This document shows, piece by piece, positions 8,436-40,041 of a stretch of DNA of 64,000 nucleotides; the first letter of the stretch is position 1, and each line of letters begins with the position of its first letter. Source of the stretch: Octopus sinensis (taxonomy: Eukaryota). The translations under genes and the position numbers were made by a program. The stretch lies in contig NC_042998.1 in NCBI RefSeq assembly GCF_006345805.1, forward strand, positions 53,134,001 to 53,198,000. The letters are read 5' to 3'. Under the pieces are notes generated by a model, which was not told the origin of the DNA, searched no databases, and was given only the letters and a program-made list of their open reading frames with translations.

Positions 8436-10123
8436 ATGTAAGCTCATGTAAACTATTGTTATTATAATCATACATATCATCAGTGTTATCTTCCTCATAA
8501 CTCATTATTATCACAATTGAGATAGTGAGCTGGCAGAAATGTTAAAGCAGCAGAAAAAAATACTTCATACTTCTATATTCAAAGACTTCAAATTCTGAGT
8601 TCAAATCCCACCAAAGTTTACTTTGCCTTTTGTAAGGCAGTGAGCTCAAAGAATTGTTAGCAGATTGCACAAAATGCTGCTAAGCATTTTGTCCATCTGT
8701 GCATTCTGAGTTCAAATGCCCCTGAGGTTAACTTTGCCCTTCATCATTTCAAGGTTGATAGAATAAGTATGAGTCAGGTACCGGGGGAGTGAGATGTAAT
8801 TGACTAGACCCACCCCTCAAAAATTTTGCGCCTTGTGCATATAGCAGAAAAAATTATAATCAGAATTGCTTTATTACCATGGCATGACAAACAAGCATGT
8901 AGTGTCTTTCATACTAAATTGCATAACATTACAAAGAACTTTTATTCAACACTATAAATTAGGTTGATTTCATAAAGCATCAATGAAGTTCAACACTATA
9001 GAATAATTAAATCTTTAATGTTTGACATAAACCTGTAAAAATGCAACACACAGTGTGCAAATTCAATACAGCAGAGTGTGAAATTGATTTAAATTGTGTA
9101 AAATACCATTTTAAAGAGCAGATATTCAATGTTTATTGCATGTAGAATCCATGCTAACATGCATAAAGGCAACACTAAGGTGCAAAATTGCAATCTAATG
9201 TGTATACAGGTTTTTTAATGGAATAATCAATCAATATTCCTGTAGGATATTTAAAGCATAGCATATATTACTAATATGCACATATGGTGTGAGCTACAAT
9301 AGTAACACTGTACTATATATTTTTAAGTAGTTCTCATTGGTCTACATAGTATAGTGCAATTCTTTTCAAAATTAGCGATTTCAAAAAAAAAATACTGACC
9401 CATTGTAATATGTGATAGAGATTATGTGTTATGTTGATGTATATATAAAACTTCACTATATAGCTTCGGGTTGATTTTTACTCTCTCTCTCATATATATA
9501 TCATCATTATTATTTAAAGTTTATTTTCTATGCTAGCATGATTTGGACACCTTGATAGGAATCGGCAAGGCCAGGGACTGCACAAGGTTCCATAGTCTGT
9601 TTGGCTTCATTTCTATAGCCAGATGCTCTTCCTAATGCCAACCACTTTACAGAGCGTACTGGGTGCTTTTTATGTTTGACTATCACCAGTTTATCTCTCT
9701 ATCTATCTATATATTACATACATATACATACATATATACACATGTACATATATACATACATATATATACATATGTACATATATACATATATATGTACATA
9801 TATGTATACATATATATACACACATATATATATATATATATATAGAAATACAGATATATATATATGTATGTATATATAAAATTAATTAAGGGTAGAAATT
9901 GATATTTATCAATTAAGACCAGTGGTCTAGCATATTAAAAAAGAATCCGAAGATTAAAATATTTATATATACCAATTAAGGACTGAACACGAAAAGTGGA
10001 CAGTCAACATGCTAGATATAGACGTCAAATCGCCATTCACCACAAAAGATTATGTTCTCAGATCAAACTCAGCACAAAACCATAGCAATAAACAAGTGAA
10101 AAATATACGAAATAAAATAATTA

Positions 10124-10187
10124 CCCATGTACTAATTAGTTTCAGCTGTTATTTTCCGCAAGGAAAACTGCAGCCATCATCAGCATG
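10124..10187 (-). ncRNA. Type-I hammerhead ribozyme (inverted copy)
   Basis: Near-identical reverse complement of 10618-10681. Confidence 0.8.
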
Positions 10188-10617
10188 GTCCGTATATTTT
10201 TCACTTGTTTATTGCTATGGTTTTGTGCTGAGTTTGATCTGAGAACATAATCTTTTGTGGTGAATGGCGATTTGACGTCTATATCTAGCATGTTGACTGT
10301 CCACTTTTCGTGTTCAGTCCTTAATTGGTATATATAAATATTTTAATCTTCGGATTCTTTTTTAATATGCTAGACCACTGGTCTTAATTGATAAATATCA
10401 ATTTCTACCCTTAATTAATTTTATATAAATAAATATGTTCTCTAACCGATAAATTGACTGCTGCTAATTATTAGCTGCAGGCTAGTTTTCTCGGGCCTCA
10501 ACGCGCCAAAGTAAAGACATTTGAAAGATATATTCAAATGTAATAGGCTGAACTCCATGCATGCGATATTTCGGTATCGTGTTTGCATCTAGTCCAGCAA
10601 ATTACATTTATAACGGA

Positions 10618-10681
10618 CCATGCTGATGATGGCTGCAGTTTTCCTTGCGGAAAATAACAGCTGAAACTAATTAGTACATGG
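10618..10681 (+). ncRNA. Type-I hammerhead ribozyme
   Basis: ccatg-CTGATGA-t-ggctg..ttttcc ttgc ggaaaa..cagct-GAAAC-taatta-GTA-catgg. Stem I ccatg/catgg, extended stem II, palindromic stem III, GUA cleavage triplet. Confidence 0.85.
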
Positions 10682-10838
10682 GTAATTATTTTATTTCGCA
10701 TATTTTTCACTTGTTTATTGCTATGGTTTTGTGCTGAGTTTGATCTGAGAACATAATCTTTTGTGGTGAATGGCGATTTGACGTCTATATCTAGCATGTT
10801 GACTGTCCACTTTTCGTGTTCAGTCCTTAATTGGTATG

Positions 10839-10906
<68 letters not shown>

Positions 10907-10955
10907 CATATATACATACATATACATATATACATACATATATACATACATATAC

Positions 10956-11000
<45 letters not shown>

Positions 11001-11004
11001 CATT

Positions 11005-11248
11005 AGTTACATTTGACGGATATTTGTTTTCATCTTGTTTGTTGTTAACACAGCATTTCAGCTTATGTACCCTCCAGCCTTCATCAAGTATCTTGGGGAA
11101 ATTTTGAGCCCAGTTTCGAAATTTCCTCAAGACACCTGATGAAGGCTGGAATGTATATCAGCCGAAACGTTGTGTTAACAACAAACAAGATGAGAACAAA
11201 TATGCATCAAATCCAAATAATGTACAAAATTCCTCATCTCTTAAACAT
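11005..11248. mobile_element. Fold-back Penelope-type element
   Basis: Arms ~11010-11104 and ~11118-11212 are diverged inverted repeats. The right arm holds a hammerhead. Confidence 0.75.
11131..11176 (+). ncRNA. Minimal type-I hammerhead ribozyme
   Basis: gacac-CTGATGA-a-ggctg-gaatgtatat-cagcc-GAAAC-GTT-gtgtt. Stem III is only the ACGT palindrome. Confidence 0.75.
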
Positions 11249-11588
11249 CGGGGGGACCCCCTTCGGTCACGACACTGACCATGGGATTGCACCTAGAAAG
11301 TTACCCTCCTAATCGCAAGTCTGGGCAAAGTGGTTTATGGAAGGCCAGCAGTCGCCCATGCATACCGGCCTCCCCTCTCCACGCCACCAGTGTTATCCAA
11401 GGGAAAGGCAGCAGCCGATACAGCTTGGCACCAGTGAGGTCACAACTCATTTCTACAGCTGAGTGAACTGGAGCAACATGAAATAAAGTGTCTTGCTCAA
11501 GAACACAACACGCAGCCCGGTCAGGGATTCGAACTCACAACCTCACGACGTAAGCTCGACGCTCTAACCACTGAGCCACGCGCCTTCA
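11249..11588 (-). mobile_element. Full-length SINE family C with 11-bp target-site duplication
   Basis: tRNA-like head (minus) tggctcagtggttagagcg...gagttcgaatcc. TSD ctcttaaacat at 11238-11248 and 11589-11599. Confidence 0.9.
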
Positions 11589-11632
11589 CTCTTAAACATA
11601 GAACTGTATATACACACACACACACACACACA

Positions 11633-11669
<37 letters not shown>

Positions 11670-11670
<1 letters not shown>

Positions 11671-11920
11671 TATCTTTGCTAAGTTATGGAGACACAAAGA
11701 CACCAACGCCAGTTGCCAAGTGGTGGTAGGAGGACAAATATAAACACAAACACAGATATATAAAATATATATAAACAACAGACTTCTTTCAGTTTCTGTC
11801 TACCAAATCTATTCACAAGGCTTTGGTCAACTTGAGACCATATTAGAAGACAATTGCCCAAGGTACACACAGTGGGACTGAACCCAGGACCATGTGTTTG
11901 GGAAGCAAACTTCTTACGAC
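11670..11920 (-). mobile_element. SINE family A (partial)
   Basis: ctttcagtttctgtctaccaaatc...cagtgggactgaaccca. Confidence 0.75.
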
Positions 11921-12559
11921 ACAAACACATATGTGAGTATAGGTTGATGTGTAGTCATATCTGTGCAATGAATATAAGTTCCTGTACTTTATTCAGGAAA
12001 ATGAAAAATTATTTTTTATTTATTTATTATTTGGTCCATTTAAATGTCATTGGAAATAAGTGTTTTATTTGTAGGTATTTATGAAAGCAAACAACTGGAA
12101 ACAACATACGTCTAATTTGATATGTTCTTTTTAGCTCTACTCTTATGATGTCAAGGAAAAGGAAACAAGTAATGTTCAAGAATGATAGTTTGTTTAATCA
12201 ACCAACAAACTATGCTTCAACAATTTCTACAAAACAATCTAATCCAGCTCTGTATGGAATTTGGTAAAAAAAAAAAAAGATAAATAAATAAGTAAAATGG
12301 AAGTGAAATACCTAATAAAATGGTGAGGAAAAGTAACAATGTTTAACTAAGTATGTTTTATATGTGTTACACATCAAAAAATGTCATCTTTTTTTTAATG
12401 ATTTTTGTGGTGATATCATGTTCTTGTTTTAGGTGTTTTGACAGAGGTCAGTTCTGAGTAAGTAGACTTATGATCAATGGTTGTCCAGCTATAATCATGC
12501 AGTCAAGTTCGGTTGTAGGGGGGGGGGTCCACACAATATGTTTAGAACCAGATTGACAA

Positions 12560-12880
12560 ATACATCCTTTCTTTAAGATCACAGAATGTCATTTGAGAGT
12601 GATTTGGTTGCTATTTCTGACACATTCTGGAGCCTGATTATCCAATGTGCCCATTGATTAAGATGGTACAGTGTGATTTGAGGGCGATTTTGCTGCCATT
12701 TCTTTAAAATTTCTGGAGTACAATTATTCAATGTTTCCTATGATTAAAATAGTAGAGCATGATTTGAGGGAGATCTGGCTGCTATTTCTTACAAGTTTTG
12801 GAGCTCGATAATCCAATGTATCTTTTGTATAAGATACAAAGTGTGATACGAGGGACATTTTGCTGTTATTTCTTACTTGT
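12560..12880. repeat. Diverged ~88-bp tandem repeat, 4 units
   Basis: Recurrent aagat...tgtgatttgaggg.gattt.gctgctatttct. The same motif is dispersed at ~4340, 47890, 52750 and 57240. Confidence 0.65.
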
Positions 12881-13329
12881 CAAATTATGATATAGAGACA
12901 TCCCTTATTAGCTTCCTGTTATTTCATGCTTATAAGAGTTGTAGCTCATTAAATTAACAGTATTGTGCCATACCAGCTGAAATACTTCACAGGTTTAACC
13001 TATTTCTGTTATCACATTGCCCATCATAAAGACACTTACTTCACTTGCCTCCTAATATCAAAGTTTATCTTACAATAAATAAGTATACCCAGCATAGGTC
13101 AGATCACCAACGTACCACCCATGCTGCATGATTCTCATCTGCTACCAATATTTTGGTGCTTCTTTGCAGAAGATGTCTATATGAGAGGATTTCCCAAAGC
13201 AAATAACCACAGTAATATGATGTTCTAACATACATCCACATTAAGGAGGATATAAAGTTTGCTACTGTTGTTGTTTGGAACTAAATCAGTCCTGATAAAG
13301 GCTGTCTTAATGGTATTACAGGCCCATAG

Positions 13330-13590
13330 GAAAATCAGTGCACTGGACTCTATTGTATTTATAGGTTGACACTAAGCCACAATAAACATAAAGCAGAATT
13401 GGCCCCAGGACATTCGGTCCCAGAGCAACTATCCATATGCTGACCCTTATAGTATTTATTCAAGGCAAGCTACAACATAAATTGATCAGAATTGGGTCCC
13501 CAGGTAACTGTCCAGTGTCCTGGCTCCTATATTATGTTGTTATTGACAGCAAACCACAGCATACAGGGATCAGAATTAGGCCCCTGCAAC
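13330..13590. repeat. Diverged ~85-93-bp tandem repeat, about 3 units
   Basis: cagaatt(g/a)g(g)cccc at ~13394, 13487 and 13571. Confidence 0.5.
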
Positions 13591-13817
13591 AGTTCTGAAT
13601 TCCCATGTCTTAAGATAGCACAGGTCCTGACAAAATAGACCTATAACATAAAATATGTTCATGTGTTGACTATCCTGTTTTTTTTTTTAATATATACCTT
13701 GGATTACATTATACCATGTGACTTTTCTCACACAGCTTTGGTCAGTTTGAGGTACTGTGAAGTGAAACTGAACCCAAGACCCCATGGTTGGGAAGCAAGC
13801 TTCTTAACCACACAGCC

Positions 13818-13859
<42 letters not shown>

Positions 13860-14684
13860 TATATATTTATATATATAATATATGTCTGTCTGTGTTTGTC
13901 ACACAATATCTCTACTTACAACTGGTGTTGGCTTGTTTATGTTCCCATAACTTTGGCAAAAGAGATTGATAGAATATATATCAGACTTTTAAAAGGAAAA
14001 ACGTAAGTACTAGAATCGATTTTCTTTCTTTCTTTATTATTTTTATTATTTTTTTTTGTTATCTAAAACCCTTCAAGGTGGTGTCCCAGCATTAACCACA
14101 GTAAAAGATCCAAAAAGTGAATTAATACTCCAGAAAATTATAATCTTTATGATAAAAATTCCACTCAGACTTTTAGATATTATTTGATTTAGTATTTTTT
14201 TTTTCTTTTTCTAGATAATGGATATTCCCTGGCCTGAAGTCAGTAGACATAATAACTACATTGGTATAGATATTTATCTTCATGTGTAAAGTCAAGCAAC
14301 AGACAACATATCACATTCTATTTGTGATGAGATATTTGTGAAGAAGTTTCTGAACAGCTCCACCTGCTAAAAATAGCACCCAAATTGCTTTCAAAATATA
14401 CTTCACTCATAATCATCATCATTCTTTAATGCTCTCTTTTCCATGCTTGCATGGGTCAGTTGGAATTCTTTGAGGCAGAATGTTTTTTTTTCTACAGTCA
14501 GATGCCCTTCCCGCTGCCATCCCTCACTTGTTTCCAAGCAAAGTTATATTTTCTCTTGGTCAGACAAGTTTTTCACTGAAGGCAAGAAATGGACAACCAC
14601 ATTTGTATAACAGCGATGATCATTTATAACCTTCATATGACATCTAGATAAGGGGGACTCACAAATGTACACACACACATGGTG

Positions 14685-15445
14685 GCATGGGCCGGACGGT
14701 TTGACTGAGGACTGGTGAGCCAGATGCTGCACCAGGCTCAGTCTGATCTGGCAAAGTTTCTACAGCTGGATGCCCTACCTAATGCCAACCACTCCGAGAG
14801 TGTAGTAGGTACTTTTATGTGTGACTGGCACAAGAGCCAGTCAGGCAGTTCTGGCAACGACCATGCTCAAAAGATGTTTTTACGTGCTACCTGTACAGGA
14901 GCCAGTCCAGCAGCATTGGCAACGACCACGCTCGAATGTTGTTTTTTCACATGCCACAAGCACATGTGCCAGTAAGGCGACGCTGGCAACGATCAGACTC
15001 AAATGGTGCTTTTCATGTGTCACTGGCACAAGAGCACTCCGTGACCCTGGCAACGATCATGCTTGGATGGGCTTTTAACGTTCCACTGGCACGAGTGCCA
15101 ATCAGATGGTACTGTCATCGGTCACGTCAGTGATTTTGATTTGTTTACACTTGCCTCAATTGGTCTTCACAAGCAAAGTTCATTGTCCAATGAATGAGGG
15201 GTACTCATAAGTGGGCTGGTTACACCCCACATTTGGATGTGCTTTTAATGCTTCACTGACATGAGTGCCAATCAGGTGGTACTGTCAGTGATTTTGATTT
15301 TGATTTGATTTCACTTGCCTCACAAGCAAAGTTTATTGTCCAATGAATGAGGGGTATCCATAAGTTGGCTGGTTACACCCACTGGCATAGGCCAGGGCTA
15401 TGGTCTCACTTGGCTTGTCGGGTCTTCTCAAGCACAGCATATCTC
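14685..15445 (-). mobile_element. RTE LINE 3'UTR with diverged internal repeats
   Basis: gatgccctacctaatgccaaccactccgagagtgtagt followed by ctggcaacgacca(c/t)gctc repeats, homologous to 50190-50900. Confidence 0.75.
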
Positions 15446-15938
15446 CAAACACACACATCTATGAATCTATGTGTGTGTGTCTTTGTGTATGCATTTGTCC
15501 CCCACCACCACTTGACAACTGGTGTTGGTGTGTTTATGTCCCTGTAACTTAAGACCAACAGAATAAGTACCAGGCCTTACAAAAATAAAAATTAATAAGT
15601 ATTGGGGCCGATTCATTTGACCAAGATTCTTCAAGGCAGTGGAAAAAGAAAAAGAACACTAGGAATAACTTGAAATCCACTTTGAGAAACAATTATATAA
15701 TATGTGATTAACAATGATTTAAAAGTTAAGGGTTAATGGATATTTGATACTTTCAGCAATTATTTCTTTATTAATTTTATATATTAGAAAAATTGTGTAG
15801 ATGTATCAACATTCCTATACACAAAATGTCTATACCTATAACAGACACATAATACTTTGTAAAAGAAAAACAAGAAAAAATATATATACATACATACACA
15901 TCTATGTGTATGTGTGTGTATATATATATATATATATG

Positions 15939-15973
<35 letters not shown>

Positions 15974-23698: not shown

Positions 23699-24452
23699 TG
23701 TGTGCAAAGGAAATTCTGACAAACAACATGATATTTAAATGTATACTTACATGATTGCAATGTAAAGAAGCTTTATGCTTCATTTCATATCAAATTAATG
23801 CCCTACAGATTTTTATCATTAAATCATTGCTTTTTCTATCAAGACACAAAATATTGAAAGGTTGAGTCAAAAGTACAGAATCCAAGTACAAACTTATATA
23901 TATATGTATATATGCATGTTCTTAATTATTGATATTACTTTAATTGCTTCCGAAAGTATACACTTCAATAATATAAGTGCATATAACTTTAGTTGATGGT
24001 ATATCATTTCAGCATACATGTTTCATGACTCTTAGATTTCTATACGATTGATATGCAAGCCTTGAACTTTCTTTCATCTGTAAATTGTATGATATCTAGT
24101 CTTTGAACGTTTATCCAAATATTAGGTTTCCATGATATACATACATACACACACACACACACATATACATACACACACACACATATACATACACACATAT
24201 ACATATGCACACACACATATACATATACACACATATATACATACTTAAATATATATACATACATAAATATATACATACATAGGTATGTTGCATCACCTAT
24301 TTTGTTATGTCATGCTTTGTATTAAAAAATAAGCTATAAATGTGGTTCAATCAATGTGTTGGTTAATCTGTGGTTTTCTCCATTTTCTAATTATATGCAT
24401 ACAGAAATATACATACCTACATACATACATATATATAATTAGAAATATTGCA

Positions 24453-24840
24453 TTTCTAAATCTCTTAGAGAGACTTAAACAGTAGCAGCATGATAAAGTG
24501 ATGGTTTGTTGCCAACTTAATGTGGCAGTCCCATGAAAGGGAAGAATGCTGCTGCTATTTAACCTCAGGAAACACTGTTTACAGTTGGCTAAGTGACACA
24601 AGCATTCTGTGTCCTTAAGTTTCCAAACAGGGGAGATAAGCACCTACACCCAGCAAAGCCAGCATCCAGAATTCATTTCGCTTGAAATTCTATAAATTTT
24701 CAATTGCAAATAAGCATTGACAGCTAGCAAGCCAAGCTACTCCAGACTGATGAAGAGCAATAACTCTGAAACTAGTCTCTGAATGCTGGCTTTGCTGGGT
24801 GGACGTGCTTATCTCCCCTGTTTGAAAATATAAGGACATA
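24453..24840. mobile_element. Fold-back Penelope-like/retrozyme element
   Basis: 24608-24670 is the inverted repeat of 24778-24840. Homologous to the 361-bp unit at 38989-40006 (tttctaaatctct, gtcctta, ggggaga). Confidence 0.75.
24743..24781 (+). ncRNA. Minimal type-I hammerhead ribozyme, canonical core
   Basis: caga-CTGATGA-agag-caataa-ctct-GAAAC-ta-GTC-tctg. Palindromic ACTAGT stem III, GUC triplet. Confidence 0.85.
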
Positions 24841-26949
24841 AAATACACCTGTTAAGGTGAATTGATATAGAGAGAGATTTAGAGTAGTGTAAAATACAAT
24901 TATAATTAAGGGTATACAGGAAACCATGCCTATGCCCTTAATTATAACAGCATTTTATACAATAATAAATCTCTATATATGTATATCTATATATTCAAAG
25001 GGCGTTTTGAGGTTCCACTCACAAGACATTGATTAACTTGGGGCTTTCATTGAAGACACTTGCCCAAGATAGCATGCAGTGGGACTGAACCCAAGACCAT
25101 ATTGTTGGGAAGCAAGCTTTTTAGCCACAAAGTCACACATGAAGAATATGCAATATTTTTGTCTGGAAATAATTTTGTAGATTCATGGTGACTGAGTAGT
25201 TATTGTTGCTGCTAAATCCCAATCTGGCACTAATCAAGCAAACATATAATCTAAAATTTTCCAGATGTGACCACCCAGTCATTTTTTTTTTGACGATATA
25301 GAATACTCTATCTAATGCACCCTTATTCAGGGTGTAATTTAAAGAAAGTTTTTGACTGCCATCTCCACTAGGGGCCAACAGACAGTAGCTCTCTTGTTGG
25401 ATTGTGATATCTGCATAGGATCAGTACATAAGTTAAGTTAAGTTAAGTTAATTTTTTGGAAGTCATATCCTATCACTGGCACAATAATGTATCTTTGGAC
25501 TAACCATTAGCTAATTTTTTGTTATTTTTTTTTTACATTTTACTGGAAATAATTAGACCATATCTAAAACAGGCCTGCTAATAAAGCTTTCACTAAATTA
25601 CTGATTGAATTAGAACACAGGTAATGAATTCTACCAAACTCAACTTAGCTTGTCCAAATTTACAAATAGTTAAGAAATGCAGAAATGTGGCAGACTGGCT
25701 GTGATTGCCATGGAAATTGCACCATTGCAGAAAAATTTGTGTCAAGAACTATATCATTACTATCGATAGAACAGACTCCAGACATTAAATCTTGACTCAT
25801 TTCTGCTTTATGACACTATTTATTTCACTATAAGTAATAGATATAGTACATATGTTGTGTGAAATCTTGTAGCAACTTATATTCAGAACAATATAGCATG
25901 CATTATATTACCTTTACTGGATACATTACCTTGGCATCTACTCATAAACAAGTCTGTACAACATAGTAATAGCTTCACTTTGAAATTGTGAACCCTATTA
26001 TATATATATATATATATATCAGCTGTGATCTCTCTGTCACCTAAACTGTTCATCAGCTTTCACTTTATATAATGTTTAAAGTTTGAAGGCTAACTCCAAT
26101 CTAGATGAGAACATATATAATACTACCTTATTGCGGTTGACAAAGTTGTTAATAATATAACAGATAAAAAGTATAAGAAAGAGTATAAGCATTTTAAGAG
26201 ATTAAAGAAAATAAATACATAAATAATCTAAATAATCAATACAATGCATCATTGGAAATATGATAAACTGGATTATAATGGATAGGATGATATTTTATAC
26301 AATAATCCTGACCTGATGAATATTTTTTTGCAATATAAGCACATTAATATATTTTGAATATAAACAGATTAATATATCTTTAGAATGATAAAGACTGAAT
26401 TTTGTCTAAAAAATTAGTAAACTCACATTAAAATGGAAATTATAATTTTTATGGTATTCTCACAAATATAATATTATACACCATGTGTATGTGTATATGT
26501 GTGTATATATGTTTGCATCTGTTCTGTTCTCTGTTGTTTTTGTCTTTCTTTTCCTTCTTCACAATGTACAGCTAATGATAGATATATACACACACATATA
26601 AACAAATATACACTTATCTTTTTTATGTACTTAAAATTATAGCTATCGAGAAATATATGATGAATATTTATTAAGAGCGATAGCAATACAACACTATGAA
26701 TGATTTCTATACAGATTTCATTTTCTTTTGTCTTCAGTTTCCCCTGCAAACTTTGTTAGGTTATGTAGAATCAGGACATTTGCATTTTGGTTCACAGACA
26801 GCTGACTTTTGTCTTCATTCATTAATGTATTCATGTACACACACAAATACACTCACACAAGCATAAATACATACACACAATTCATTTCAAAATGAACAAT
26901 TTGAGATTGAAAATGTATTTATACATACATAAATGTATGACTGTATGCA

Positions 26950-27619: not shown

Positions 27620-28715
27620 TGTTTCTTTATTAGCCACACAGGGCTGCACACAGATAGAACAAATTACAAGGTAGAGCTTTTCTTTTGAAGGTTTAAAAAA
27701 AAAGGAAGGGGGAGTTTCGATCAAAAGGGATCGTAAAAGGAGAGAAAGAGGACAAAAAGAAGGGGGGTTAAAAAAAAAAAAAAAAGGGGGAGAGGAAAAA
27801 AAAATTGATCAATAGGGATCGTTATCACAGAAATGTCAATATGAAGTGTAAAGGGGAGGACAGGTGAGGTTTACCCGTGGAAAGAAAAGCCTACGGAAAA
27901 GACCACGGTAACCTCGGTCAATGAAGTCACATTTTATATGTCTTTTTTTTTTTTTTTTTTTTTTTTTGCAAATAAGCAACTCTCTGTTTTCGATTTCTGG
28001 GTTCATAGGACTATGCTCAAGGTGGCTTCGTCATTCATATGTGCCATTCTTGCTACATTCACCCATCTTTTTTTAAAACATTCGCTAGACAAAACTTGCC
28101 TCTCTACTCTCACTTTCCTTTTCAAGTGGTACTTGAAGAAGTTGATGAGAGATTGACCAGAGAGGAAAGTGTTTGTCTCCAATCCTTTCAGACGCGTCCA
28201 CCAGATACATTCTTTCGCCATAGCCACAAGGATGATGAAAATAGCTCTTCCTTCCCGTTTGAAGGAAGGAGGCGTGACAATATTGACGATAGACTCAGCT
28301 GATAAACCGACTCGTCCCACATGTGACAGCAGTTGTTTGACATAAGCCCACAGGTCGGAAATTGTTGGACACTGAACGAGTGCATGCAGAACGGTTTCGT
28401 CGCTCTGACCGCATCTCGGGCAGGTCGGCCCCGTGTTTCTCGAGCCGTGTCTGTAGAGCTTATCCCGAACGGGTAGCGCTTCTCGGTAGCACTGCCAGGC
28501 CAGGGATCTCTGGAAGTTGTCCATGGGCCCTGGCCCGAAAGTCGTCCCGAACAGGCGGGTCAGGTACTCCTCGTCGACGTCCAGGTTCGCCCCGAGCTCG
28601 TCGTCGTACCTCCCCTCCACTAAACCCCTATAGAATGCTTTGGTTGTGTTGAAGTCACTTAAGGTCGACCCAGGACGGCAGAGTTGCTTGAGAGCAACGC
28701 GACACTCGCGGTGCC
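27619..28715 (-). mobile_element. 5'-truncated Tx1/L1-clade LINE inserted in (GATA)n
   Basis: ORF2 C-terminus plus 3'UTR ending aataaagaaac. Long (GATA)n arrays on both sides. Confidence 0.85.

Positions 28716-28716
<1 letters not shown>
28003..28716 (-). pseudogene. LINE ORF2 C-terminal fragment with zf-RVT-like zinc knuckle
   Basis: Open frame WHRECRVALKQL...AWQCYREALPVRDKL...CPRCGQSDETVLHALVQCP...W. CCHC motif typical of L1/Tx1 ORF2; no start because of 5' truncation. Confidence 0.85.
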
Positions 28717-28811
<95 letters not shown>

Positions 28812-29409
28812 GGATGGACAGACAGAGACAGACAGACAGAAAGATTGATAAATCTTATACATATACACACATATATAAACACACATTATATATACATACA
28901 TATATACACACACATATATCATCCTCACCATCGCCATGATGATTGTTTTATTGTCTACTTTCCTATGCTTGCTTAGCTCAGATGAATTTCACTGAGGTTA
29001 ACTTTCAATGACCAGATGGCCTTCTTGTTGTTAACTTTCACTTGTTTCCAAGCAAGACATATTCCCATTGAAGATTGGAAACAAAAGAAACAGCTTGTAT
29101 GACAGGGAAGCTCATTTACAACACTTGCGAGATGTCAACATGAGGAGACACAAACATACACGCATACACATCCATAGACAGATATATATACACACATGGT
29201 TGACTTCTTGCAGTTTCTGCTAACAAAATCCACTCACAGAAATTTTAGTTAGTCCAGGGATAGAGTAGACATTACTGACACTTGCCTAAGGTGCCCTATA
29301 CTAGAACTGAACCAAAAACTATCTAGTTGGAAAATGAAATTCTTAGCTACACTGCCATACCTGCACCTGACACACATTCACACACACACATATGTATATA
29401 TATATATAG

Positions 29410-29888
29410 ATCACTGTGACCAACCAGGCTATCAGATGTTGCTACATAACACTAGTCACAATGCACTTCACATTGTTTTTCAAATGATGTCACGACGCTG
29501 GCTAAACAAGCAGGCTAACATAAGAAAGAGTGAGAGAAAGTTGTGGTGAAAGAGTACAGCAGGGATCGCCACCACCCCATGCAGGAGCCTCGTGGAGCTT
29601 TAGGTGTTTTCGCTCAATAAACACTCACAACGCCTGGTCTGGGAATCGAAACCGCGATCCTACAACCACGAGTCCGCTGCCCTAACCACTGGGCCATTGT
29701 GCCTCCACATATATATATGTGGTCGTAGGATCATGGTTTCGATTCCCATATGTATATATATATATATATATGTGGATGCGCAATGGCCCAGTGGTTAGGG
29801 CAGTGGACTCATGGCTGTAGGATCATGGTTTTGATTCCCAGACCAGGCATTGTGAGTGTTTATTGAGCGAAAACACCTAAAGCTCACC
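29410..29888. mobile_element. Two head-to-head SINE family D copies
   Basis: 29410-29708 (-) and 29772-29888 (+) share the head gcaatggcccagtggttagggcag. Confidence 0.75.
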
Positions 29889-29889: not shown

Positions 29890-30460
29890 AAATGAGGGAA
29901 ATGGAAAATGGATTAAGCAATAATCTTTATTCAGCACAACGATTGGTTTGACCCATCCTGTGTCTGTCCCTTATGGGTAGGATATAATAGTATCTAGTTG
30001 TGTTGCATCCATCAATGCAAGATGTGTCTCATCAGGTGCATGGTGTAAATAAGATACATTACTACATATACTGAGATTCGCTTGGCATGTAGTTGCCGAC
30101 CATAATGTGTAGCCAACACTCTACAGGCAACTAAAACAGGCCAAGTGAATCTCATATCTTATTTACACCAGACACCTGATGAGACACACCTTGCATTGAT
30201 AAAGGCAACATAACTAGATGCTATTACATCACACTCTTAAAGGATAGATGCAGGATGGGTCGAAACAATTGTTGTGCTCAATAAAGATTATTGCTTATTC
30301 CATTTTCCATTTTTTTCATTCATTATAAACTCGACAAACACTGCAGAATTCATAACACAGATCCAGTGTCAACTATATCATAACTGTGGATGATATCATG
30401 TGGTCTAAATGGTGAAAGTGCTCTAATCGGAATTACTATTAGACATCTCTCCAAAGTCAA
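29890..30460. mobile_element. Fold-back Penelope-type element
   Basis: 29890-30056 and 30155-30320 are diverged inverted repeats, each with a hammerhead core. Confidence 0.75.
30173..30276 (+). ncRNA. Hammerhead ribozyme with long stem II
   Basis: cac-CTGATGA-gac...(ccttgcat...atgcagg)...gtc-GAAAC-aatt-GTT-gtg. About 79 nt between the core boxes. Confidence 0.65.
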
Positions 30461-30682: not shown

Positions 30683-31699
30683 CATATATATAAGCACACA
30701 CACTCACACTCATATATATATATATAACTTTTAATTAAATTCCTGATTCTCAGTCAAAAGATCAAGGAGAACATTGCTGAATAAAGAAATGGAAGCATTA
30801 CAAATATAAAGTGCATAATTCTTGTTTCTGATATTGACTTGATAGCACATGCAAACTGTTAGAGCACTTTCACGCCTCACTAGAAGTTGAAAAGTGATTT
30901 TGCGAACAATAAAGAACAAGTCAAAATAAAAAAAAAGGAACAAAAGGCCTTTTCTCTTGTGATATTGCTCTTCTTAACTTGAGGGCAGTATCTACCTCTC
31001 TACATTAACCACACCTTCATCACAAAGTGGAATTCATAAAAGTTCAGAGTTGATCATATTTGTTTTCATCTTGTCCACAACAGCCACCAAATAGAATAAA
31101 ACTATCCAACCTTTTCAGACAAACGAAGGCAATGAGGTAATTCTCAAGATAATCTTGACTGATATTAAGCTGTTTGACATAATTCCACAATTCAGCAATG
31201 CTTGGATACAGAATGAGTCTCAGTAGATGGTTTCATTGCACTGTAACTATCTGAGAAGGGCTTAACTGATGATGCTTCCAAGCCTGTAGAGTTTATTTTG
31301 AAATGGCAATACCTCCTAATAGCATGGCTATTCCAAAGATTTCTGAGTGGTATTCATATACTCTGGACAGAAAGCTCTCTAAATCAATTATTCCTTTGAT
31401 CTCCATCAATGCCTAGAATCTTTCCAAGAACACTGTAATTCTTGCTCTTGTCAAAGAATCATCTATACAATGAGTGGATTGTTTTTTTATAACACTCCAG
31501 TTTTTCTACTGAGAGCTGCTGCAAGCCATTGAGATACAAACTTGGAATCAAACAACATACGCTTATCATGGGCCACTAAAAATCTAATTTTGCCTTTATT
31601 TTATCTACTACCACTGCCACCCAGGCCCACTGAAAAGCATGTACCTTAGCTCTGAGAATGCATTTCCTGAAGAAATGGTTCTACATTAATTTTATGGTT

Positions 31700-32756: not shown

Positions 32757-33080
32757 AGGGGCTCAGTGGTTAGAGCATCAGGCTTACAATCATGAGGTAA
32801 TGAGTCTGATTCTTGGATTGAGCTGTGTGTTGTGTTCTTGAGCAAGACACTTTATTTCATGTTGCTCCAGTTCACTCAGCTGCAGAAATGAGTTGCAACA
32901 TCACTGGTGCCAAGCTGTACTGTTCTTTGTCTTTCCCTTGGATAACATCGGTGCCATGAAGAGGGAAAACTGGTATGCATGGGCAACTGTTGGTCTTCCA
33001 TAAGCAACTTGCCCAGACTTGTGCCACAGAGGGGAAATTTCTAGATGCAATCCCATGGTCATTCATGACCAAAGGGGGTC
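32757..33080 (+). mobile_element. SINE family C
   Basis: ggctcagtggttagagc...gtgttcttgagcaagacactt...ccagttcactcagctg. Confidence 0.85.
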
Positions 33081-33604
33081 TTTATCCTTTTTATAGAGAA
33101 ATAGATAAATTGTAACAAATATATAAATAGCAAATTCCAAGAACAGAATATACCATTTAGTAAATGCAAGGGTTATTATCAACAAAGAATTTATAATAGC
33201 AAGATCGCCAATGAGAAGATGAGTATATGAAAGATTTGAATAATTAGCTTTCTCATTGTACTGTAGTTATGAAACAGATCTGTAACTGGCTGTAGATTAT
33301 TCGGTACTGGGCCACAGGGCCACACAGAAAGAATACATATTCAATCTCATTTCTATTTCCATGAGTGTCACAGTCTGCATGGTGTTTTCTTATTATATAT
33401 GTAATAATTAAATAATAGTGTTTGGAAGGAAATCCAGCCATAGAAAAAAACAAAAAGACATGCCAAAGCAGACAGTAGAGCTTGATGCAGTCTTCTGACT
33501 TGCCAGCTCCTGTCAAGCCATCCAACCTTGCCAGCATAGAAAAAAGACGTTAAATGAAGTTGCTGATGATGATGATGCACTTTTATTGTGCACCTACAAT
33601 GTTG

Positions 33605-33820
33605 GACAAAGGGGACCATATCAGATGTTATATTTTGGTGACAAAAATCACTTAACTATATTGATGCTATTAGTTGAGATACAGAACATGAAACTGAGGA
33701 TCTACCAAAATTAATGTCTGTCAGAGATTCCTGGTTCAGGAATCTCTGTTCCCTAGTAGTATCTCGATTGCCACCACTTGAAGGTGAAAGAAACTAATAA
33801 CTGAATTTCAAGCCAACATG
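33605..33820. repeat. Unclassified dispersed repeat (second copy ~36380-36620)
   Basis: Shared gacaaaaatcact...gagattcctg...ggaatctc...ccacttgaa.gtgaaagaaactaata. Confidence 0.7.
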
Positions 33821-34764
33821 ATACCCTGGTCCATGGAAAAATTGTCTCATAAAACTTGATCATGGTTCAAAAAGGTTGGGGAAGGCTATTACAAGTGATA
33901 GGGAGAAAAAAGAACAATATGAATTTATGGGTGTTTACTGGTTTAAAACCAGCTTTCTTTGGATGAATGGCATTATACTATAAACAGTCAGTGTAATACG
34001 AATTTCACTCTCATTATTCTCATGGGTTCCATAGAAAACACACCAAGAGGAAACTCTCATTAAAATAGCTTTCTATGTCAATGCAAATCCACAACAGGCA
34101 TCGTGGATAATTTAGCTGGACCGGTTTGATAAACATTGTTTTATGGAATTGTCCTGAAGTAATTTCATTTACTTCCAAATATTTGACAATTGTATTAGTA
34201 CCACAAGCAAATCATTTGTTGATTATGTGACCCTTGCAAGTTAAGCTGTCCTATAGGATCCCATTATCAGTGAAGCATGAACCAGTGAATCAAAACTAAT
34301 AAAAGTTTGCTTGAGAAAGAAAGACTAAGCTAACGAGTTAACGATCTCACAAGATAAAAGCTAATGGTCTATGTACATTCCATGCTAAGACACAGACCAT
34401 TTATCAGCTGGGGAGTTAATCAGTTTAAATTTGGTTTAATTTGTCCATAAAAGATGTAATAGTTAACCAGCTGAACTTAAAGCACATTAAATCACAGGTT
34501 TGGGTAGTGTACATTCTTTGAGAAAAGCATCATATTGTATTTCACAATAAATTAGTTCGCAGATAAATAATTTCATAAATTAAAAAAAAAGCAGCTTAAT
34601 TCCCAATCATATAGTTTTGGGTTCAGTTCCATGGCATGAAACCTTAGGAAAGTGTCTTATACTATAGACCTGAGCTGACCAAAGCCTTGTGAGTGGATTT
34701 GGTAGACAGAAACTAAAAGAAGCTCATCAATGTATGTGTGCGCCTTTGCATTTATTCTACACTA

Positions 34765-35098
34765 AGGAGTGGCTGTGGGGTAAGTAGCTTACTTATGAAC
34801 CACATGGTTTCGGGTTCAGTCCCACTGCATGGCACCTTGAAAGAATGTCTTCTACTATAACCTCGGGCTGACCAAAGCCTTGTGAGAGGATTTGGTAGAT
34901 GGAAACTGAAAGAAGCCTGTCGCAGAATGCCACTTATATTTGAACACTATACAAATATTCCTTTAAAAAAACTTTTCTTTTAATTTTTCTAAATTTAATT
35001 ATTTAATCATTACAGTTGAAAAGGTCTCAAAATGACCGAAACCGGTACTGAAATGTTCTTTATAAAATTATTTTAGCATTTTCTATTTTGACTTGTTT

Positions 35099-35143
<45 letters not shown>

Positions 35144-35340
35144 GTATGTGTATGTATATGTTTGTGTGTCTGTGCTGGTGTGTTTACGTCACCATAACTT
35201 AGCTGTTTGGCAAAAGAGGCCGATAGAATAAGTACTAGGCTTACAAAGAATAAGTTCTGGGGTCAATTTGCTCGACTAAAGACGGTGCTCCAGCATGGCC
35301 ACAGTCAAATGACTGAAACAAGTAAAAGAGTAAAGAGTAA
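34765..35340 (+). mobile_element. SINE family A split by a Penelope-type fragment (~34925-35102)
   Basis: Head and body run to gaagcctgtcg, then foreign sequence and (TA)n, then the tail ggtgtgtttacgtcacc...tgactgaaacaag. Confidence 0.7.
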
Positions 35341-37761
35341 AAGAGAGTAGTTTGACAGTCAATGTTGGTTTGTTAATGTCACTGTAACTTAGTAGTTCAG
35401 CAAAGGAGACCAACAGGATAAGTAACAGGCTTAAAAGACAATAAGTACTGTGGTCAAATTGTCTAACTAAAACCTTCAACACGGTGCTCCAGCAAGGCCA
35501 CAGTCTAATGACTGAAACAAGTGAAAGACAGAAGAAAGATAATTAATACTGACTGGATTAGTCTGTAACATCATCATTTCAATACTAATTTAAATCTTCT
35601 TTGTGTTTGCTTACTCACAAAGAAAGGTAATATACACATTTATATATGTGTAGGTTAGTGAAGACACATGGTTCACCATCATAAGGCCAGGAGTTCAATT
35701 CCCAACAGTGCCTTGTATCCTTGAGTAAGATACTTTGCTTCATATTGCTCCAGTCAACACAAGGAAAAAAGGAGTTATACCTGTAATTCAAAGGGCCAGT
35801 CCTATCACAGTCTGTGTCACACTGAATCTCCCTAAGAACTACATTAAGAGTACATGTGTCTCTTGCATGTTAATTGCATGAACAGGCTGTTCCACTGATT
35901 GGATCAAGTGGAACCCTCAGGTTGCTATATAATTATATTCCCTATCAATGTTTCCATGCTGCTATCCAAAAAGATACACAGGATTCTTGTAAATGTGAAG
36001 CAGAGGAATGGATAGTTAATCTTCCAACATTTATATTTATATTGATCTCTGCTCCATATGAAGTGTAGATCACTAGCATGCCTTCATGCAAACACGATAT
36101 AGATTTAATCATATTGCTACATAATCACACAAAGTCTACCCAGCTGTGAATGGTAACCCTGCGATGGACTAGCCTTCTCTACTGAGCTGAAACCTGATTT
36201 ATAGAGAAGGAACTTTAAAATTATCTTAATGTTATATACACCGAGTTTCTCATTTGGGCTCAGAACATCTTATGACATAAACACAAGACCACAGGGAAGA
36301 TTATTTGTAAACATACTCAATGCATCGCTACTATTGCTGTTCAATGCAAGGTAGGGATTTCAGGCCTCAACTACCATGTTCAACAGAGGGGGACATATCA
36401 TATGTTATATTTTGGAGGCTTTGACACCCTCACAAAAGACAAAAATCACTCCTCAACCACATAGATGCTGTTAACTGAGACACAGAACATAAAATTAAAG
36501 ATCTGCCAAAACTAATGGCTGTCAGGGATTCCTGATGTAGGAATCTCCATTCTCTGGTAGCATCATGATTGCTACCACTTGAAAGTGAAAGAAACTAATA
36601 GCTGAATTTTTAGCCAACAAAGGAGCCTTTACACGGTCAGTTGATCAGTTAAAAATAGTGAAATCTCACTTAGATAACACCCTAAAATCTTTTGAAAAAC
36701 AAAAAGGGGCTTATTGGATAATGCTGTTCAGAGTACACAATATCAGGAGAAAAAAAATGGCTGGGATACTTTTGATCGCAGCCCTTCTTTATCAGGGCTG
36801 ACGCAAGCATAAAAACAAAATGTGATCTGTAGCAGATAAAAGCTAGCTTGTAATATAAAATATGTAACCACTCAGATGGAAATCCTGGTGGAAATTTTAT
36901 TCCATTGTTTACAACAGGAAGTTATGCTCCAGGAAGTTGCATATATCAAGAAGTTTATCAATGATTATATACATGCATATTACACATATATATGTGTGTG
37001 TGTATGTGTATATATATATATATATAGCAAAGAAAGACTGAGTATTTACCCTTTATTACATATATGTGTGTGTATATGTATACGGTAGAGAAAGACTGGG
37101 CTATTTACCCTTGTATATACACATATATATCATATGTATACTTATATATGTGTACATATTTGAGTGTGTAAGAGGAAGGAGAGTGTATTTACAGATGTAG
37201 ATCAAAAAGTTATTCAATGAGTAAATTTGTTGCTATATATCATAACAATTCATAGATTGTTAGAGAATTCAATATATATTCTTCAACAGAGTGATGACTA
37301 AATCACATGGTCTCAAATAACTTTATCATCGGCAATACAAATGACATGAGTTGATGTATGGTTTGATGTTACTGTGGCTGAATAAATGAGCTGCTTCGGT
37401 CTAACCTGCTTCATACAACTAAAACCATTCATAAAATTTTTCTTGTCTTACATAAACAATATATATGTTTGTACTCCGACTGTCTCTTTCTCTCAAACGT
37501 ACATACACACATTACAAACCTGTATTAGTTCATGTGAGTTAATGTGCGAATGTATATGTTTATGTACATATATTCATTATCATTTTTGGGACTGTAAGAG
37601 TACAGGCATTACAAAGATATCTGGGAGGAGTATGCAGATATTCATATATACACATATAGGCATGTATATGTGCATGCTTACACATATATCTATGTGCTAC
37701 ATGTGTGTGTTTGTGTATGTGCCTATGTCTGTATGTGTATATACATATACATATATATATA

Positions 37762-38140
37762 TGGCTGTGTGGTAAGTAGCTTGATAACCAACCACATGGT
37801 TCCGGGTTCAGTCCCACTGCGTGGCAACTTGGGCAAGTGTCTTCTGCTATAGCCCCGGGCCGACCAATGCCTTGTGAGTGGATTTGGTAGACAGAAACTG
37901 AAATAAGTCTGTCGTATATATTTATATATATATATATATATATATGTGTGTTTGTCCCCCTAGCATTGTTTGACAACCGATGCTGGTGTGTTTACGTCAC
38001 CGTCACTTAGCGGTTTGGCAAAAGAGACCGAAAGAATAAGTACTGGGCTTACAAAAAGAATAAGTCCTGGGGTCGAGTTGTTCGATTAAAGGCGGTGCTC
38101 CAGCATGGTCGCAGTCAAATGACTGAAACAAGTAAAGAGA
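37762..38140 (+). mobile_element. Young full-length SINE family A
   Basis: Complete head, body, microsatellite and tail, with CpGs retained. Confidence 0.9.
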
Positions 38141-39216
38141 GAGTATATGTATACATACATATATATATATATGCATACACATATATATACATATATATAC
38201 CTATATATATACATACATATACATACTCATATGTACATACATAGTATACATACATATACATACATACACATACATACATACATATACACACATACATATA
38301 TATATACATACATATTTATATATACATACATACATATATATATACATATACATATATATACATACATATATATATATACATACATATATATACATACACA
38401 CATATACATACATATATGTATATACATACACATGCATATATACATACATATATATATGTATGTATATATATACATACATATACATACATGCATATAATTT
38501 CAGATGCATGTACAACCAAGAAAGAATATTTTTGCTTATAAATATAACTAAAAAGAAATCAAAGGTTGCTGAGAAAACACAAATAAGATGCACAATAAAG
38601 AGCAGTTTGGTCTGTTTTATTACCAACATAAATTTCACATTGCACTTCAATAAAAGCATTATATAATAACATCAAAGGACTTAGAAAAAAAATCAGCTGA
38701 GAGTGAACAATGTCATAGGTACTTTTCAGCAAATTTCCTTCTGATGTGTCCAATATTGTTCCGGATTCATTTGAGTTAGGAACTAATTTAACTAAAACAA
38801 CTATATCAGATACAGGTATATCTGTGTGGCTAAAAGAGTCCCTTTGTAATCAAATGGTTTTGGGTTTGATCCTTTAAATTCCTTTTTTTCCCCACACTAT
38901 GGTAACTTAGGTAGGTGATTTTTACTGTAGACTTGGATTGGCCTCTATCTTTTGAAATGGTGTGGAAGGTTGTCATATATATATATATATCAGAAATACT
39001 AAATTTCTAAATCTCTCATAGAGACATGTACGATGGTGGGGCGATAGAATGGTTGTATACTGTCAATCTAACACGAACGTGACAGTAGGGGAGTATACCA
39101 CCACTGTATAGCCCTAGGAAGCATCAACACCTCCTGATGGCTTGGACACATTTTTCCTGTGTCCTTATATACATTTACGAAGGGGAGACAAATACCCCCA
39201 GCCATCTGGGCTGCAT

Positions 39217-39259
39217 CTAGGGACACGTGTTTCAGGATGATTGTCCTTCATCGGCCTAG
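39217..39259 (-). ncRNA. Hammerhead-fold motif, variant core CCGAUGA
   Basis: Minus strand: ctagg-CCGATGA-agga-caatca-tcct-GAAAC-acgt-GTC-cctag. Confidence 0.75.
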
Positions 39260-39577
39260 AGTAGCAGACACCGGTCAGCTGACGATACCTGTCTCAACTC
39301 GTAATGTATATATCTAAATTTCAGTGAAGTCTATTCACTGATTATCAAAATCAGAAGTACTAAATTTCTAAATCTCTCGTAGAGACATGTACGGTGGTGG
39401 GGCGATAGAATGGTTGTATACTGTCAATCTAACACGAACGTGACAGTAGGGGGGTACACCACCGCTGTTTAGCCCTAGGAAGCATCGACGCCTCCTGATG
39501 GCTTTGACACATTTTTCCTGTGTCCTTATATACATTTACGAAGGGGAGACAAATACCCCCAGCCACCCGGGCTGCAT

Positions 39578-39620
39578 GTAGGGACACGTGTTTCAGGATG
39601 ATTGTCCTTCGTCGGCCTAA
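39578..39620 (-). ncRNA. Hammerhead-fold motif, variant core CCGACGA
   Basis: Minus strand: ttagg-CCGACGA-agga-caatca-tcct-GAAAC-acgt-GTC-cctac. Confidence 0.75.
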
Positions 39621-39792
39621 AGTAGCAGACACCGGTCAGCTGACGATACCTGTCTCGACTCGTAATGTATATATCTAAATTTAAAAATTTAGTATTTCTG
39701 ATTTTGATAATCAGTGAATAGATTTCACTGAAATTTAGATATATACATTACAAGTCAAGACAGGTATCGTCAGCTGACCGGTGTCTGCTACA

Positions 39793-39835
39793 CTAGGCCG
39801 ACGAAGGACAATCATCCTGAAACACATGTCCCTAG
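39793..39835 (+). ncRNA. Hammerhead-fold motif, variant core CCGACGA
   Basis: ctagg-CCGACGA-agga-caatca-tcct-GAAAC-acat-GTC-cctag. Confidence 0.75.
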
Positions 39836-40000
39836 ATGCAGCCCAGGCAGCTGGGAGTATTTGTCTCCCCTTCGTAAATGTATATAAGGACACAGGAAAA
39901 ATGTGTCAAAGCCATCAGGAGGCATCGATGCTTCCTAGGGCTAAACAGCGGTGGTGTACCCCCCTACTGTCACGTTCGTGTTAGATTGACAGTATACAAC

Positions 40001-40041
<41 letters not shown>

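What the first reader, a model, noticed from the sequence alone, without database searches (positions are those of the whole stretch)
9873..40006. Shared architecture: five hammerhead loci, all with 3' ends pointing outward
Seen: at 9.9, 11.0, 24.5, 29.9 and 39.0 kb the minus-sense ribozyme strand is always on the left and the plus-sense strand on the right. The 9.9- and 39-kb loci have TA-rich microsatellite at both ends. At least four unrelated sequence families are involved, an unusually high ribozyme density for 64 kb. Inference: one mechanism (priming from both strands of a TA-rich target by a Penelope-type RT/GIY-YIG) mobilises a diverse set of small ribozyme RNAs. If transcribed, the fold-backs are long dsRNA and possible ADAR or Dicer substrates, which matters because coleoids edit RNA heavily.
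Basis: inference. Interest (0 to 1): 0.7.

Follow-up and report, generated by a model that had tools for sequence, protein, structure and literature searches.

The report
Octopus ribozyme retroelements inserted head-to-head
Five spots in this probably octopus DNA hold small hammerhead-ribozyme repeats as back-to-back mirror pairs, mostly beside TA repeats, which is the known footprint of Penelope-type jumping genes that likely copied them; a role as RNA-editing targets is untested.

Summary
All five loci are inverted pairs of hammerhead-bearing sequence joined at their 5' ends. Only 7 of 11 arms or units keep an intact type-I core (shuffle mean 0.1). Loci C and E are related, so there are four families. 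A sixth copy at 62.8 kb is a single arm. Seven of 10 ends touch TA-type repeats, against a 2.2% base rate.

Public contigs show that family A is a repeat with a 506-nt tandem or circular unit. Both 3' ends of the locus recur across the family and join TA repeats.

Head-to-head inversion, partial tandems, unequal ends ('tail') and (TA)n targets are the published signature of Penelope-like elements (PLEs), and a purified PLE nicks and extends both target strands. These loci are therefore non-coding retrozyme or pLTR-like inserts, likely mobilised by PLE proteins. At locus A neither arm could be a plain copy of the other, which favours two RNA-templated priming events.

The mobilising element was not found. 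The genome-wide orientation ratio, self-cleavage, transcription and ADAR or Dicer use are not shown. Verdict: new octopod members of a known kind.

The parts
9873..10193 (-). Locus A left arm: -63 to +257 relative to the cleavage site; intact type-I hammerhead (C3 10183, H17 10130); long 3' end at a TA run
10191..10847 (+). Locus A right arm: 1.3 units of a 506-nt monomer; intact hammerhead (C3 10623, H17 10676); short 3' end at +171 on a TA run; 3-nt overlap with the left arm at the inversion point; the two ends differ by 86 nt
11004..11103 (-). Locus B left arm: decayed hammerhead; 3' end at about +52/53 on the TA run 10835-11000
11104..11248 (+). Locus B right arm: minimal hammerhead (C3 11136, H17 11171, stem III reduced to a 4-nt palindrome); continues at 11600-11606 to +84 and a TA/CA run; tail 31-32 nt
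11249..11599 (.). Later SINE-like insertion in the tail of B, with a 10-nt target-site duplication (11239-11248 and 11590-11599); related copies at 8132-8435 and 32760-33080
   Evidence: the SINE label is my reading of the sequence, not a tool result
24440..24670 (-). Locus C left arm: starts at the hammerhead cleavage site, has no core; 3' end 3 nt from a TA run, same end motif as the long end of E
24671..24860 (+). Locus C right arm: intact hammerhead (C3 24747, H17 24777; HH9 31.8 bits, E 6.6e-07 in a 91-nt search, below gathering); homology to the left arm ends near 24850; true 3' end uncertain
29891..30110 (-). Locus D left arm: decayed hammerhead with a long stem II; abuts a truncated SINE-like repeat, no TA run
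30111..30320 (+). Locus D right arm: hammerhead-like core near 30176 with a stem II of about 90 nt, palindromic stem III and a 3-bp stem I; failed the strict and relaxed scans; junction and 3' end approximate
38989..39682 (-). Locus E left arm: 1.9 tandem units of 361 nt, two hammerheads with a CCGA core variant (C3 39615 and 39254); long 3' end at +233 on a TA run
39679..40006 (+). Locus E right arm: hammerhead (C3 39798, H17 39830); short 3' end at +176 on a TA run; 4-nt overlap at the inversion point; the two ends differ by 57 nt
62820..63068 (-). Locus F (outside the finding): single arm of the C/E family, 5'-truncated inside stem II, TA runs at both ends, no inverted partner

Best explanation
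These loci are short non-coding repeats with type-I hammerhead folds, joined head-to-head and ending mostly on TA microsatellites, and they were likely inserted by a Penelope-type reverse transcriptase/endonuclease acting in trans.

Inferred steps: (1) A tandem or circular element RNA is bound by a PLE protein. (2) The protein nicks both strands of a (TA)n target. (3) Each nick primes cDNA at one of two fixed internal start sites downstream of the ribozyme. (4) Both cDNAs stop early and are joined at their 5'-truncated ends through 3-4 nt of microhomology. This leaves 3' ends outward and one end longer than the other (the tail: 31-32, 57 and 86 nt in B, E and A). If only one strand is extended, the result is a solo arm such as F.

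A and E are retrozyme-like (506- and 361-nt units). B and D may be retrozyme ends or the pLTR stubs of truncated autonomous PLEs. The ribozymes are of the type predicted to work as dimers, and most templates were copied across an uncut or re-ligated site.
For: Sequence, shown here. 5 of 5 fold-backs are head-to-head. There are 7 intact cores against a shuffle mean of 0.1, and 6 of 7 have a palindromic stem III. 7 of 10 ends lie within 5 nt of a TA-type run, base rate 2.2% (an eighth depends on an uncertain boundary). The longest ATG ORF is 87 aa.

Public contigs of family A. 2,199 and 1,826 contigs were laid from two runs taken as DNA (one of unknown kind, one guessed). A joint going back 506 nt appears in 4 of 4 runs. 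Loose ends behind 10341 are (AT)n in 15 contigs in each of X1 and X2. Loose ends at 10424-10436 are TA-rich in X2, X6 and X16. The one opposite-strand joint listed (X16) is head-to-head by my reading of tables 5 and 8.

One source for both A arms. They differ at 0 of 237 positions and share letters carried by only 2-16%, 19-27% and 37-46% of summed family depth. Yet 234 of 638 right-arm 20-mers are absent from the left arm, and only 229 of the 321 left-arm bases are colinear in the right arm.

Literature. PMC3846280 (head-to-head most frequent, 31-bp tail). PMC8557442 (inverted 5'-truncated copy, 30-40-bp tail, (TA)n bias; its supplement lists Octopus Naiad and Hydra PLEs with (TA)n preference). 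PMC11167929 (both strands nicked and extended, two RT start sites define the tail, uncleaved RNA is the main template). PMC4209133 (paired minimal hammerheads 100-700 bp apart on opposite strands in Schistosoma).
Against: No autonomous partner was found. 141 of 254 filtered window ORFs were scanned and none had a GIY-YIG hit. 0 of 5 family motifs were found in the PLE sequences of the PMC8557442 supplement (line breaks could hide a match), and the listed Hydra-1_Obim hammerhead differs from ours. The tails of A and E (86 and 57 nt) exceed the published 30-40 bp. D has no TA at either end and C's right end is unclear. In B and E the shorter arm lies within the longer one, so snap-back is not excluded there. 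PAc starts reverse transcription at sites not homologous to the target, whereas several ends here have TA-like letters at the junction. Family-wide data come from one family, as contigs, with 19 of 217 loose-end rows shown. No opposite-strand joint was listed in X1 or X2 at the 2% threshold, so the share of fold-back copies is unknown.
Confidence: 0.75

Rival explanations
1. Same PLE-type insertion, but the second arm is made by self-priming. Either the cDNA 3' end snaps back and copies itself, or an antisense transcript self-primes, as proposed for rotifer Penelopes.
For: There are 3-4-nt overlaps at the inversion points of A and E. In B and E the shorter arm is contained in the longer one. 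PMC3846280 reads junction palindromes as self-priming on an antisense template.
Against: At A neither arm is a colinear subset of the other. Both outer ends fall on sites that are joined to TA in many other copies, as expected if each end was primed at the target.
Confidence: 0.13
2. The fold-backs are not made at insertion. Either two independent copies landed in the same TA hot spot in opposite orientation, or DNA repair or replication template switching inverted part of a single copy later.
For: TA runs are hot spots: A and B share one run (10835-11000), and F shows that solo arms exist. TA-type repeats cover 6.5% of the window.
Against: The A arms are identical over 237 nt and share minority family letters. 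No TA spacer lies between the arms at any of the five junctions. Independent landings would not favour one polarity.
Confidence: 0.07
3. They are MITE-like fold-back DNA transposons with TA target sites that happen to carry ribozyme motifs.
For: Inverted repeats flanked by TA resemble Tc1/mariner-type MITEs (recalled). A Tc1-like fragment lies at 51275-51502 (weak Pfam hit).
Against: The ends are unequal, the arms contain tandem units, and the 5' truncation points differ between arms. The family has a 506-nt head-to-tail joint. A solo arm exists.
Confidence: 0.03
4. The near-perfect fold-backs are assembly artefacts from chimeric reads.
For: The A arms are 98-100% identical.
Against: The arms of B, C, D and E differ by 4-30%. 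In E, 9 of 21 variable sites are CpG although CpG makes up 26 of 276 positions, the pattern of ageing in the genome. Both ends of A match family-wide ends.
Confidence: 0.02

Closest known systems
Endonuclease-bearing Penelope-like elements (Penelope/Poseidon, Neptune, Hydra, Naiad), insertion architecture as in PMC3846280 and PMC8557442
   Same: Head-to-head inverted 5'-truncated copy, partial tandems, a tail at one end (31-32 nt in B), (TA)n target, type-I hammerhead near the 3' end.
   Different: No RT/GIY-YIG ORF in these inserts. Tails of 57 and 86 nt in E and A. No sequence match found to the Octopus Naiad or Hydra consensus sequences searched. Naiads lack canonical hammerheads.
Metazoan non-LTR retrozymes (PMC7229834; bioRxiv 2026.07.22.740005)
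   Same: Non-coding tandem units (361 and 506 nt), one type-I hammerhead per unit, GC 34-45%, dispersed repeats.
   Different: In the passages I read they are described as monomers and head-to-tail tandems; 'inverted' and 'opposite' do not occur in the main text of PMC7229834. Here they carry the inverted, tailed, TA-targeted PLE footprint. Circular RNA is not shown here.
Minimal PLE hammerheads (PMC4209133)
   Same: Short palindromic stem III predicting dimeric cleavage, an extra base 5' of stem II (A, B), and pairs on opposite strands 100-700 bp apart.
   Different: E has a CCGA core variant and D has a stem II of about 90 nt. No activity was tested here.
L1 twin and dual priming (PMC2837659)
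   Same: Both target strands prime cDNA, giving an inverted insert with an internal junction of little or no microhomology.
   Different: No poly(A) tail and no visible target-site duplication. The arms overlap in sequence and end at fixed internal sites.

Membership tests
Type-I hammerhead ribozyme | Core CUGANGA...GAAA...UH with stems I-III, open at stem I | tested here: met
   7 of 11 arms or units in the five loci (3 of the 7 have the CCGA variant); the other four are decayed or absent
Type-I hammerhead ribozyme | Rfam gathering score | tested here: not met
   C 31.8/52 bits (HH9), E 14.4/34 (Hammerhead_1), B none; A and D not searched alone
Type-I hammerhead ribozyme | Self-cleavage | not testable with these tools
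   Contigs cannot show RNA ends
Non-LTR retrozyme | Tandem units of a few hundred nt, each with a type-I hammerhead | tested here: met
   E: 361-nt period, 1.9 copies, two cores. A: 506-nt unit, joint in 4 of 4 runs. Not shown for B, C or D
Non-LTR retrozyme | Non-coding, GC below 50% | tested here: met
   GC 0.34-0.45, longest ATG ORF 87 aa
Non-LTR retrozyme | Expressed as circular RNA | tested here: inconclusive
   The 506-nt joint stands in two runs guessed to be RNA and also in the two runs taken as DNA, so tandem DNA explains it
Penelope-like element (autonomous) | ORF with telomerase-like RT and GIY-YIG endonuclease | tested here: not met
   No long ORF in the loci; no GIY-YIG among 141 of 254 window ORFs scanned
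PLE-mobilised insert | Head-to-head inverted 5'-truncated copy | tested here: met
   5 of 6 loci in the window, 0 tail-to-tail
PLE-mobilised insert | Two fixed 3' ends differing by a 30-40-bp tail | tested here: inconclusive
   B 31-32 nt fits; A 86 and E 57 nt are longer; C and D undefined. Fixed ends shown for A only
PLE-mobilised insert | (TA)n or AT-rich target | tested here: met
   7 of 10 ends, base rate 2.2%; TA loose ends in public contigs; D is an exception
PLE-mobilised insert | Sequence homology to the pLTR of an autonomous PLE of the host | tested here: inconclusive
   0 of 5 motifs in the PMC8557442 supplement; no genome or repeat library to search
PLE-mobilised insert | Target-site duplication | not testable with these tools
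   Hidden by the microsatellite flanks; no empty allele at hand

The most novel reading that the evidence does not exclude
Penelope-mobilised ribozyme fold-backs are a main source of the unusually abundant long, near-perfect double-stranded RNA and A-to-I hyper-editing reported for octopus, whose repeat source was left unassigned (PMC5625713). In this window they supply 1,718 of 1,973 bases in close, at least 90% identical, non-microsatellite inverted arms. Read-through folding would also switch off the ribozyme: predicted stem probabilities fall from 0.8-1.0 to 0.0 for A, B and E. If this window's 7 intact cores per 64 kb are typical, the genome holds far more hammerheads than the thousands reported for mussel or schistosome.
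Probability: 0.15. Interest if true: 0.7.

Novelty: new member of a known kind. Interest (0 to 1): 0.38.

Why it matters
The architecture itself is published for Penelope-like elements. Two things are useful here. First, retrozyme-like units carry the full PLE footprint (inversion, two fixed ends, TA target). This is structural support for mobilisation by PLEs, which a 2026 preprint inferred from phylogeny while leaving the mechanism open. Second, locus A separates two-ended priming from simple snap-back. A young, widespread family offers many loci with which to test how PLE inversions and tails arise, a point PMC8557442 calls undefined. The link to octopus hyper-editing would matter more, but it has no direct support yet.

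Tried and rejected
No whole genome is held, so the genome-wide orientation scan could not be run.

Family motifs found nothing in viral contigs or metagenome contigs.

The run search listed no holder on record as RNA; this is no evidence on expression. Summed contig depth was higher over the 3' half of unit A, but it is not a copy number and was not used.

Editing: the three E copies show 1 A>G among 21 changes and 15 C>T or G>A, so no ADAR imprint on the templates. One contig of depth 7 in a run guessed to be RNA has T>C at 10305, 10306, 10307 and 10321, letters seen in 0-2% of depth in X1 and X2. It lies at an indel-prone T run and has no matched DNA, so it was not accepted as editing.

C-left begins at the cleavage site, but 1 of 12 arms or units is not beyond chance by my rough estimate.

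Rfam miRNA hits are microsatellite noise.

Four look-ups of earlier findings returned nothing.

Eight paper searches listed no paper whose title or abstract start describes octopus hammerhead fold-backs. The library lacks most subscription papers, so this does not prove absence. The supplement of PMC7229834 could not be read and may list cephalopod retrozymes.
Full report
OBSERVATION. The window has 34.7% GC and is rich in microsatellites. Forty shuffles in 1-kb blocks gave a mean of 0.1 and a maximum of 2. Six of the 7 have a palindromic stem III, which predicts dimeric cleavage according to PMC4209133. Rfam gathering scores were not reached: C matched HH9 at 31.8 of 52 bits, E matched Hammerhead_1 at 14.4 of 34, and B had no hammerhead match. 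Aligned in ribozyme sense, all five loci have the minus arm on the left and the plus arm on the right; alone that is p=0.031 one-sided. Four arms lack an intact core: B-left, C-left, D-left and D-right.

CORRECTIONS. C and E are related (score 94, shuffle maximum 31-32), while the other 9 of 10 family pairs are within shuffle range, so there are four families. A sixth locus, F at 62820-63068, belongs to the C/E family, is cut inside stem II and has TA runs on both sides with no inverted partner. The window count is 5 of 6 head-to-head, 1 solo and 0 tail-to-tail. B is TA-flanked on both sides once a nested insertion with a 10-nt duplication is skipped. Seven of 10 ends lie within 5 nt of a TA-type run, against 2.2% of other positions; an eighth (C right) depends on an uncertain boundary, and D has none within 100 nt. 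Ends were partly recognised by where the microsatellite begins, so this enrichment is somewhat inflated.

ANATOMY. A is a 321-nt arm (-63 to +257 from the cleavage site) joined to a 657-nt arm of 1.3 units ending at +171. E is 1.9 units of 361 nt ending at +233, joined to an arm ending at +176. B ends at about +52/53 and +84. The two ends therefore differ by 86, 57 and 31-32 nt. The inversion points overlap by 3 nt in A and 4 nt in E. The loci are non-coding, with a longest ATG ORF of 87 aa and GC of 0.34-0.45. Most arms run through a cleavage site, so their templates were uncut or re-ligated (inference). In E, 15 of 21 changes are C>T or G>A and 9 of 21 fall in CpG, the pattern of ageing after insertion.

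EVIDENCE FROM OTHER COPIES. No genome is held. Locus A sequence is held by 20 of 24 listed runs from 11 studies and five coded organisms, all as contigs. One 506-nt unit was laid against four runs, and 2,199, 1,826, 12 and 50 contigs mapped. A joint going back 506 nt appears in 4 of 4 runs. Loose ends behind 10341 are (AT)n in 15 contigs in each of X1 and X2, and loose ends at 10424-10436 are TA-rich in three runs; 19 of 217 rows were shown. These are the two outer ends of locus A, so both are family-wide and target-joined. One shown row has TA before 10206, which is a 5'-truncated copy joined directly to TA, like F. The single opposite-strand joint listed joins two low ends, which I read as head-to-head. 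None was listed in X1 or X2 at the 2% threshold, so how many copies are fold-backs is unknown. The A arms differ at 0 of 237 positions and share letters that are in the minority in the family. Yet 234 of 638 right-arm 20-mers are missing from the left arm, and only 229 of 321 left-arm bases are colinear in the right arm. One source was thus copied twice, and neither arm is a plain copy of the other.

HOST. The highest-identity hit of a neighbouring LINE ORF is an Octopus vulgaris protein (88% over half the query); an O. bimaculoides protein gives 78%. Pfam on 141 of 254 filtered ORFs found LINE and transposase fragments and no GIY-YIG; no host exon was recognised. Whether the loci lie in a transcript is unknown.

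MECHANISM. Shown: the structure above. Inferred: a PLE protein binds tandem or circular element RNA, nicks both strands of (TA)n, primes at two fixed internal sites, and the two truncated cDNAs are joined at their 5' ends. I put this at 0.75, snap-back or antisense self-priming at 0.13, independent or later inversion at 0.07, MITE at 0.03 and artefact at 0.02. Not shown: the enzyme, whether one enzyme serves all families, self-cleavage and expression. Predicted folding of read-through RNA gives uninterrupted helices of 143-239 bp for A and 67-68 bp for E and removes the tested hammerhead stems of A, B and E, but not stem II of C.

COMPARISON. PMC3846280 (passages and Discussion) calls head-to-head the most frequently observed arrangement and describes a 31-bp tail. 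PMC8557442 (passages and supplement passages) describes an inverted 5'-truncated copy, a 30-40-bp tail and (TA)n bias. It lists Octopus Naiad and Hydra PLEs with (TA)n preference and says cephalopod Naiads are long inactive. PMC11167929 (main text) shows nicking and extension of both strands and two start sites that define the tail. PMC4209133 (passages) notes paired hammerheads on opposite strands 100-700 bp apart. PMC7229834 (passages; supplement unreadable) and bioRxiv 2026.07.22.740005 (parts 1-3 of 5) define non-LTR retrozymes and link them to PLEs. PMC2837659 (passages) gives the L1 twin and dual priming parallel. PMC8969392 and PMC9977147 (passages) confirm inverted pLTRs and very short non-autonomous PLE inserts. 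The loci fail the test for autonomous PLEs. A and E pass as retrozyme-like units, and all five fit the PLE insertion footprint. Homology to a host PLE stays open, with 0 of 5 motifs found.

EDITING IDEA. PMC5625713 (passages) reports exceptional hyper-editing and dsRNA potential in octopus, with no repeat annotation, and heavy editing of Penelope in lizard. In this window the hammerhead loci hold 1,718 of 1,973 bases in close near-perfect inverted arms, microsatellites excluded. Against the idea, E shows no A>G imprint (1 of 21 changes), and the only hint in RNA-like contigs is one low-depth contig. It remains a testable hypothesis at about 0.15.

VERDICT. Real and correctly oriented, but mostly the known Penelope footprint on octopod families that I did not find described. 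New member of a known kind; interest 0.38.

Noticed in passing
window 62820-63068 (-): Sixth copy of the C/E family, a solo arm between TA runs. It sits inside a separate 75-nt inverted pair (62576-62650 and 63085-63159, 91% identical).
   Followed up: partly
window 24867-24980: Palindrome next to the right arm of C, ending on TA. Its halves weakly resemble the long 3' end of family A (score 33), and it shares a 13-letter word with the start of the published Naiad_Ovul consensus. It may be a very short fold-back insert; chance is not excluded.
   Followed up: partly
window 24670: The 5' end of C-left coincides with the hammerhead cleavage site, as if copied from a self-cleaved RNA; it is the only arm that does.
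   Followed up: partly
window 29595-29885: Inverted pair of a SINE-like repeat (85% over 292 nt) with TA between the copies, directly left of locus D.
   Followed up: no
window 11249-11599: Nested insertion in the tail of B with a perfect 10-nt target-site duplication; it looks like one repeat inside another.
   Followed up: partly
window 40194-40419: Inverted repeat (77% over 196 nt) just right of locus E, overlapping a LINE-like fragment with a weak C2H2 zinc-finger hit at 40630-40854.
   Followed up: no
window 50142-50841: GC-rich tandem array of 62-nt units, 11 copies, downstream of a LINE ORF fragment (48870-49898).
   Followed up: no
window 28003-28854 (-): LINE ORF2 3' fragment with a zf-RVT domain (E 3.3e-08), cut at an (AGAT)n run.
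   Followed up: no
window 39798, 39615, 39254: All three family E cores read CCGA instead of CUGA, so the variant predates this insertion; activity unknown.
   Followed up: no
window 10305-10321, run X16: Four T>C differences in one contig of depth 7 from a run guessed to be RNA, rare in the two other large runs; antisense editing or a diverged copy.
   Followed up: partly
window 31047-31074: 28-nt match to the 3' part of family B with no core nearby; possibly chance or a relic.
   Followed up: no
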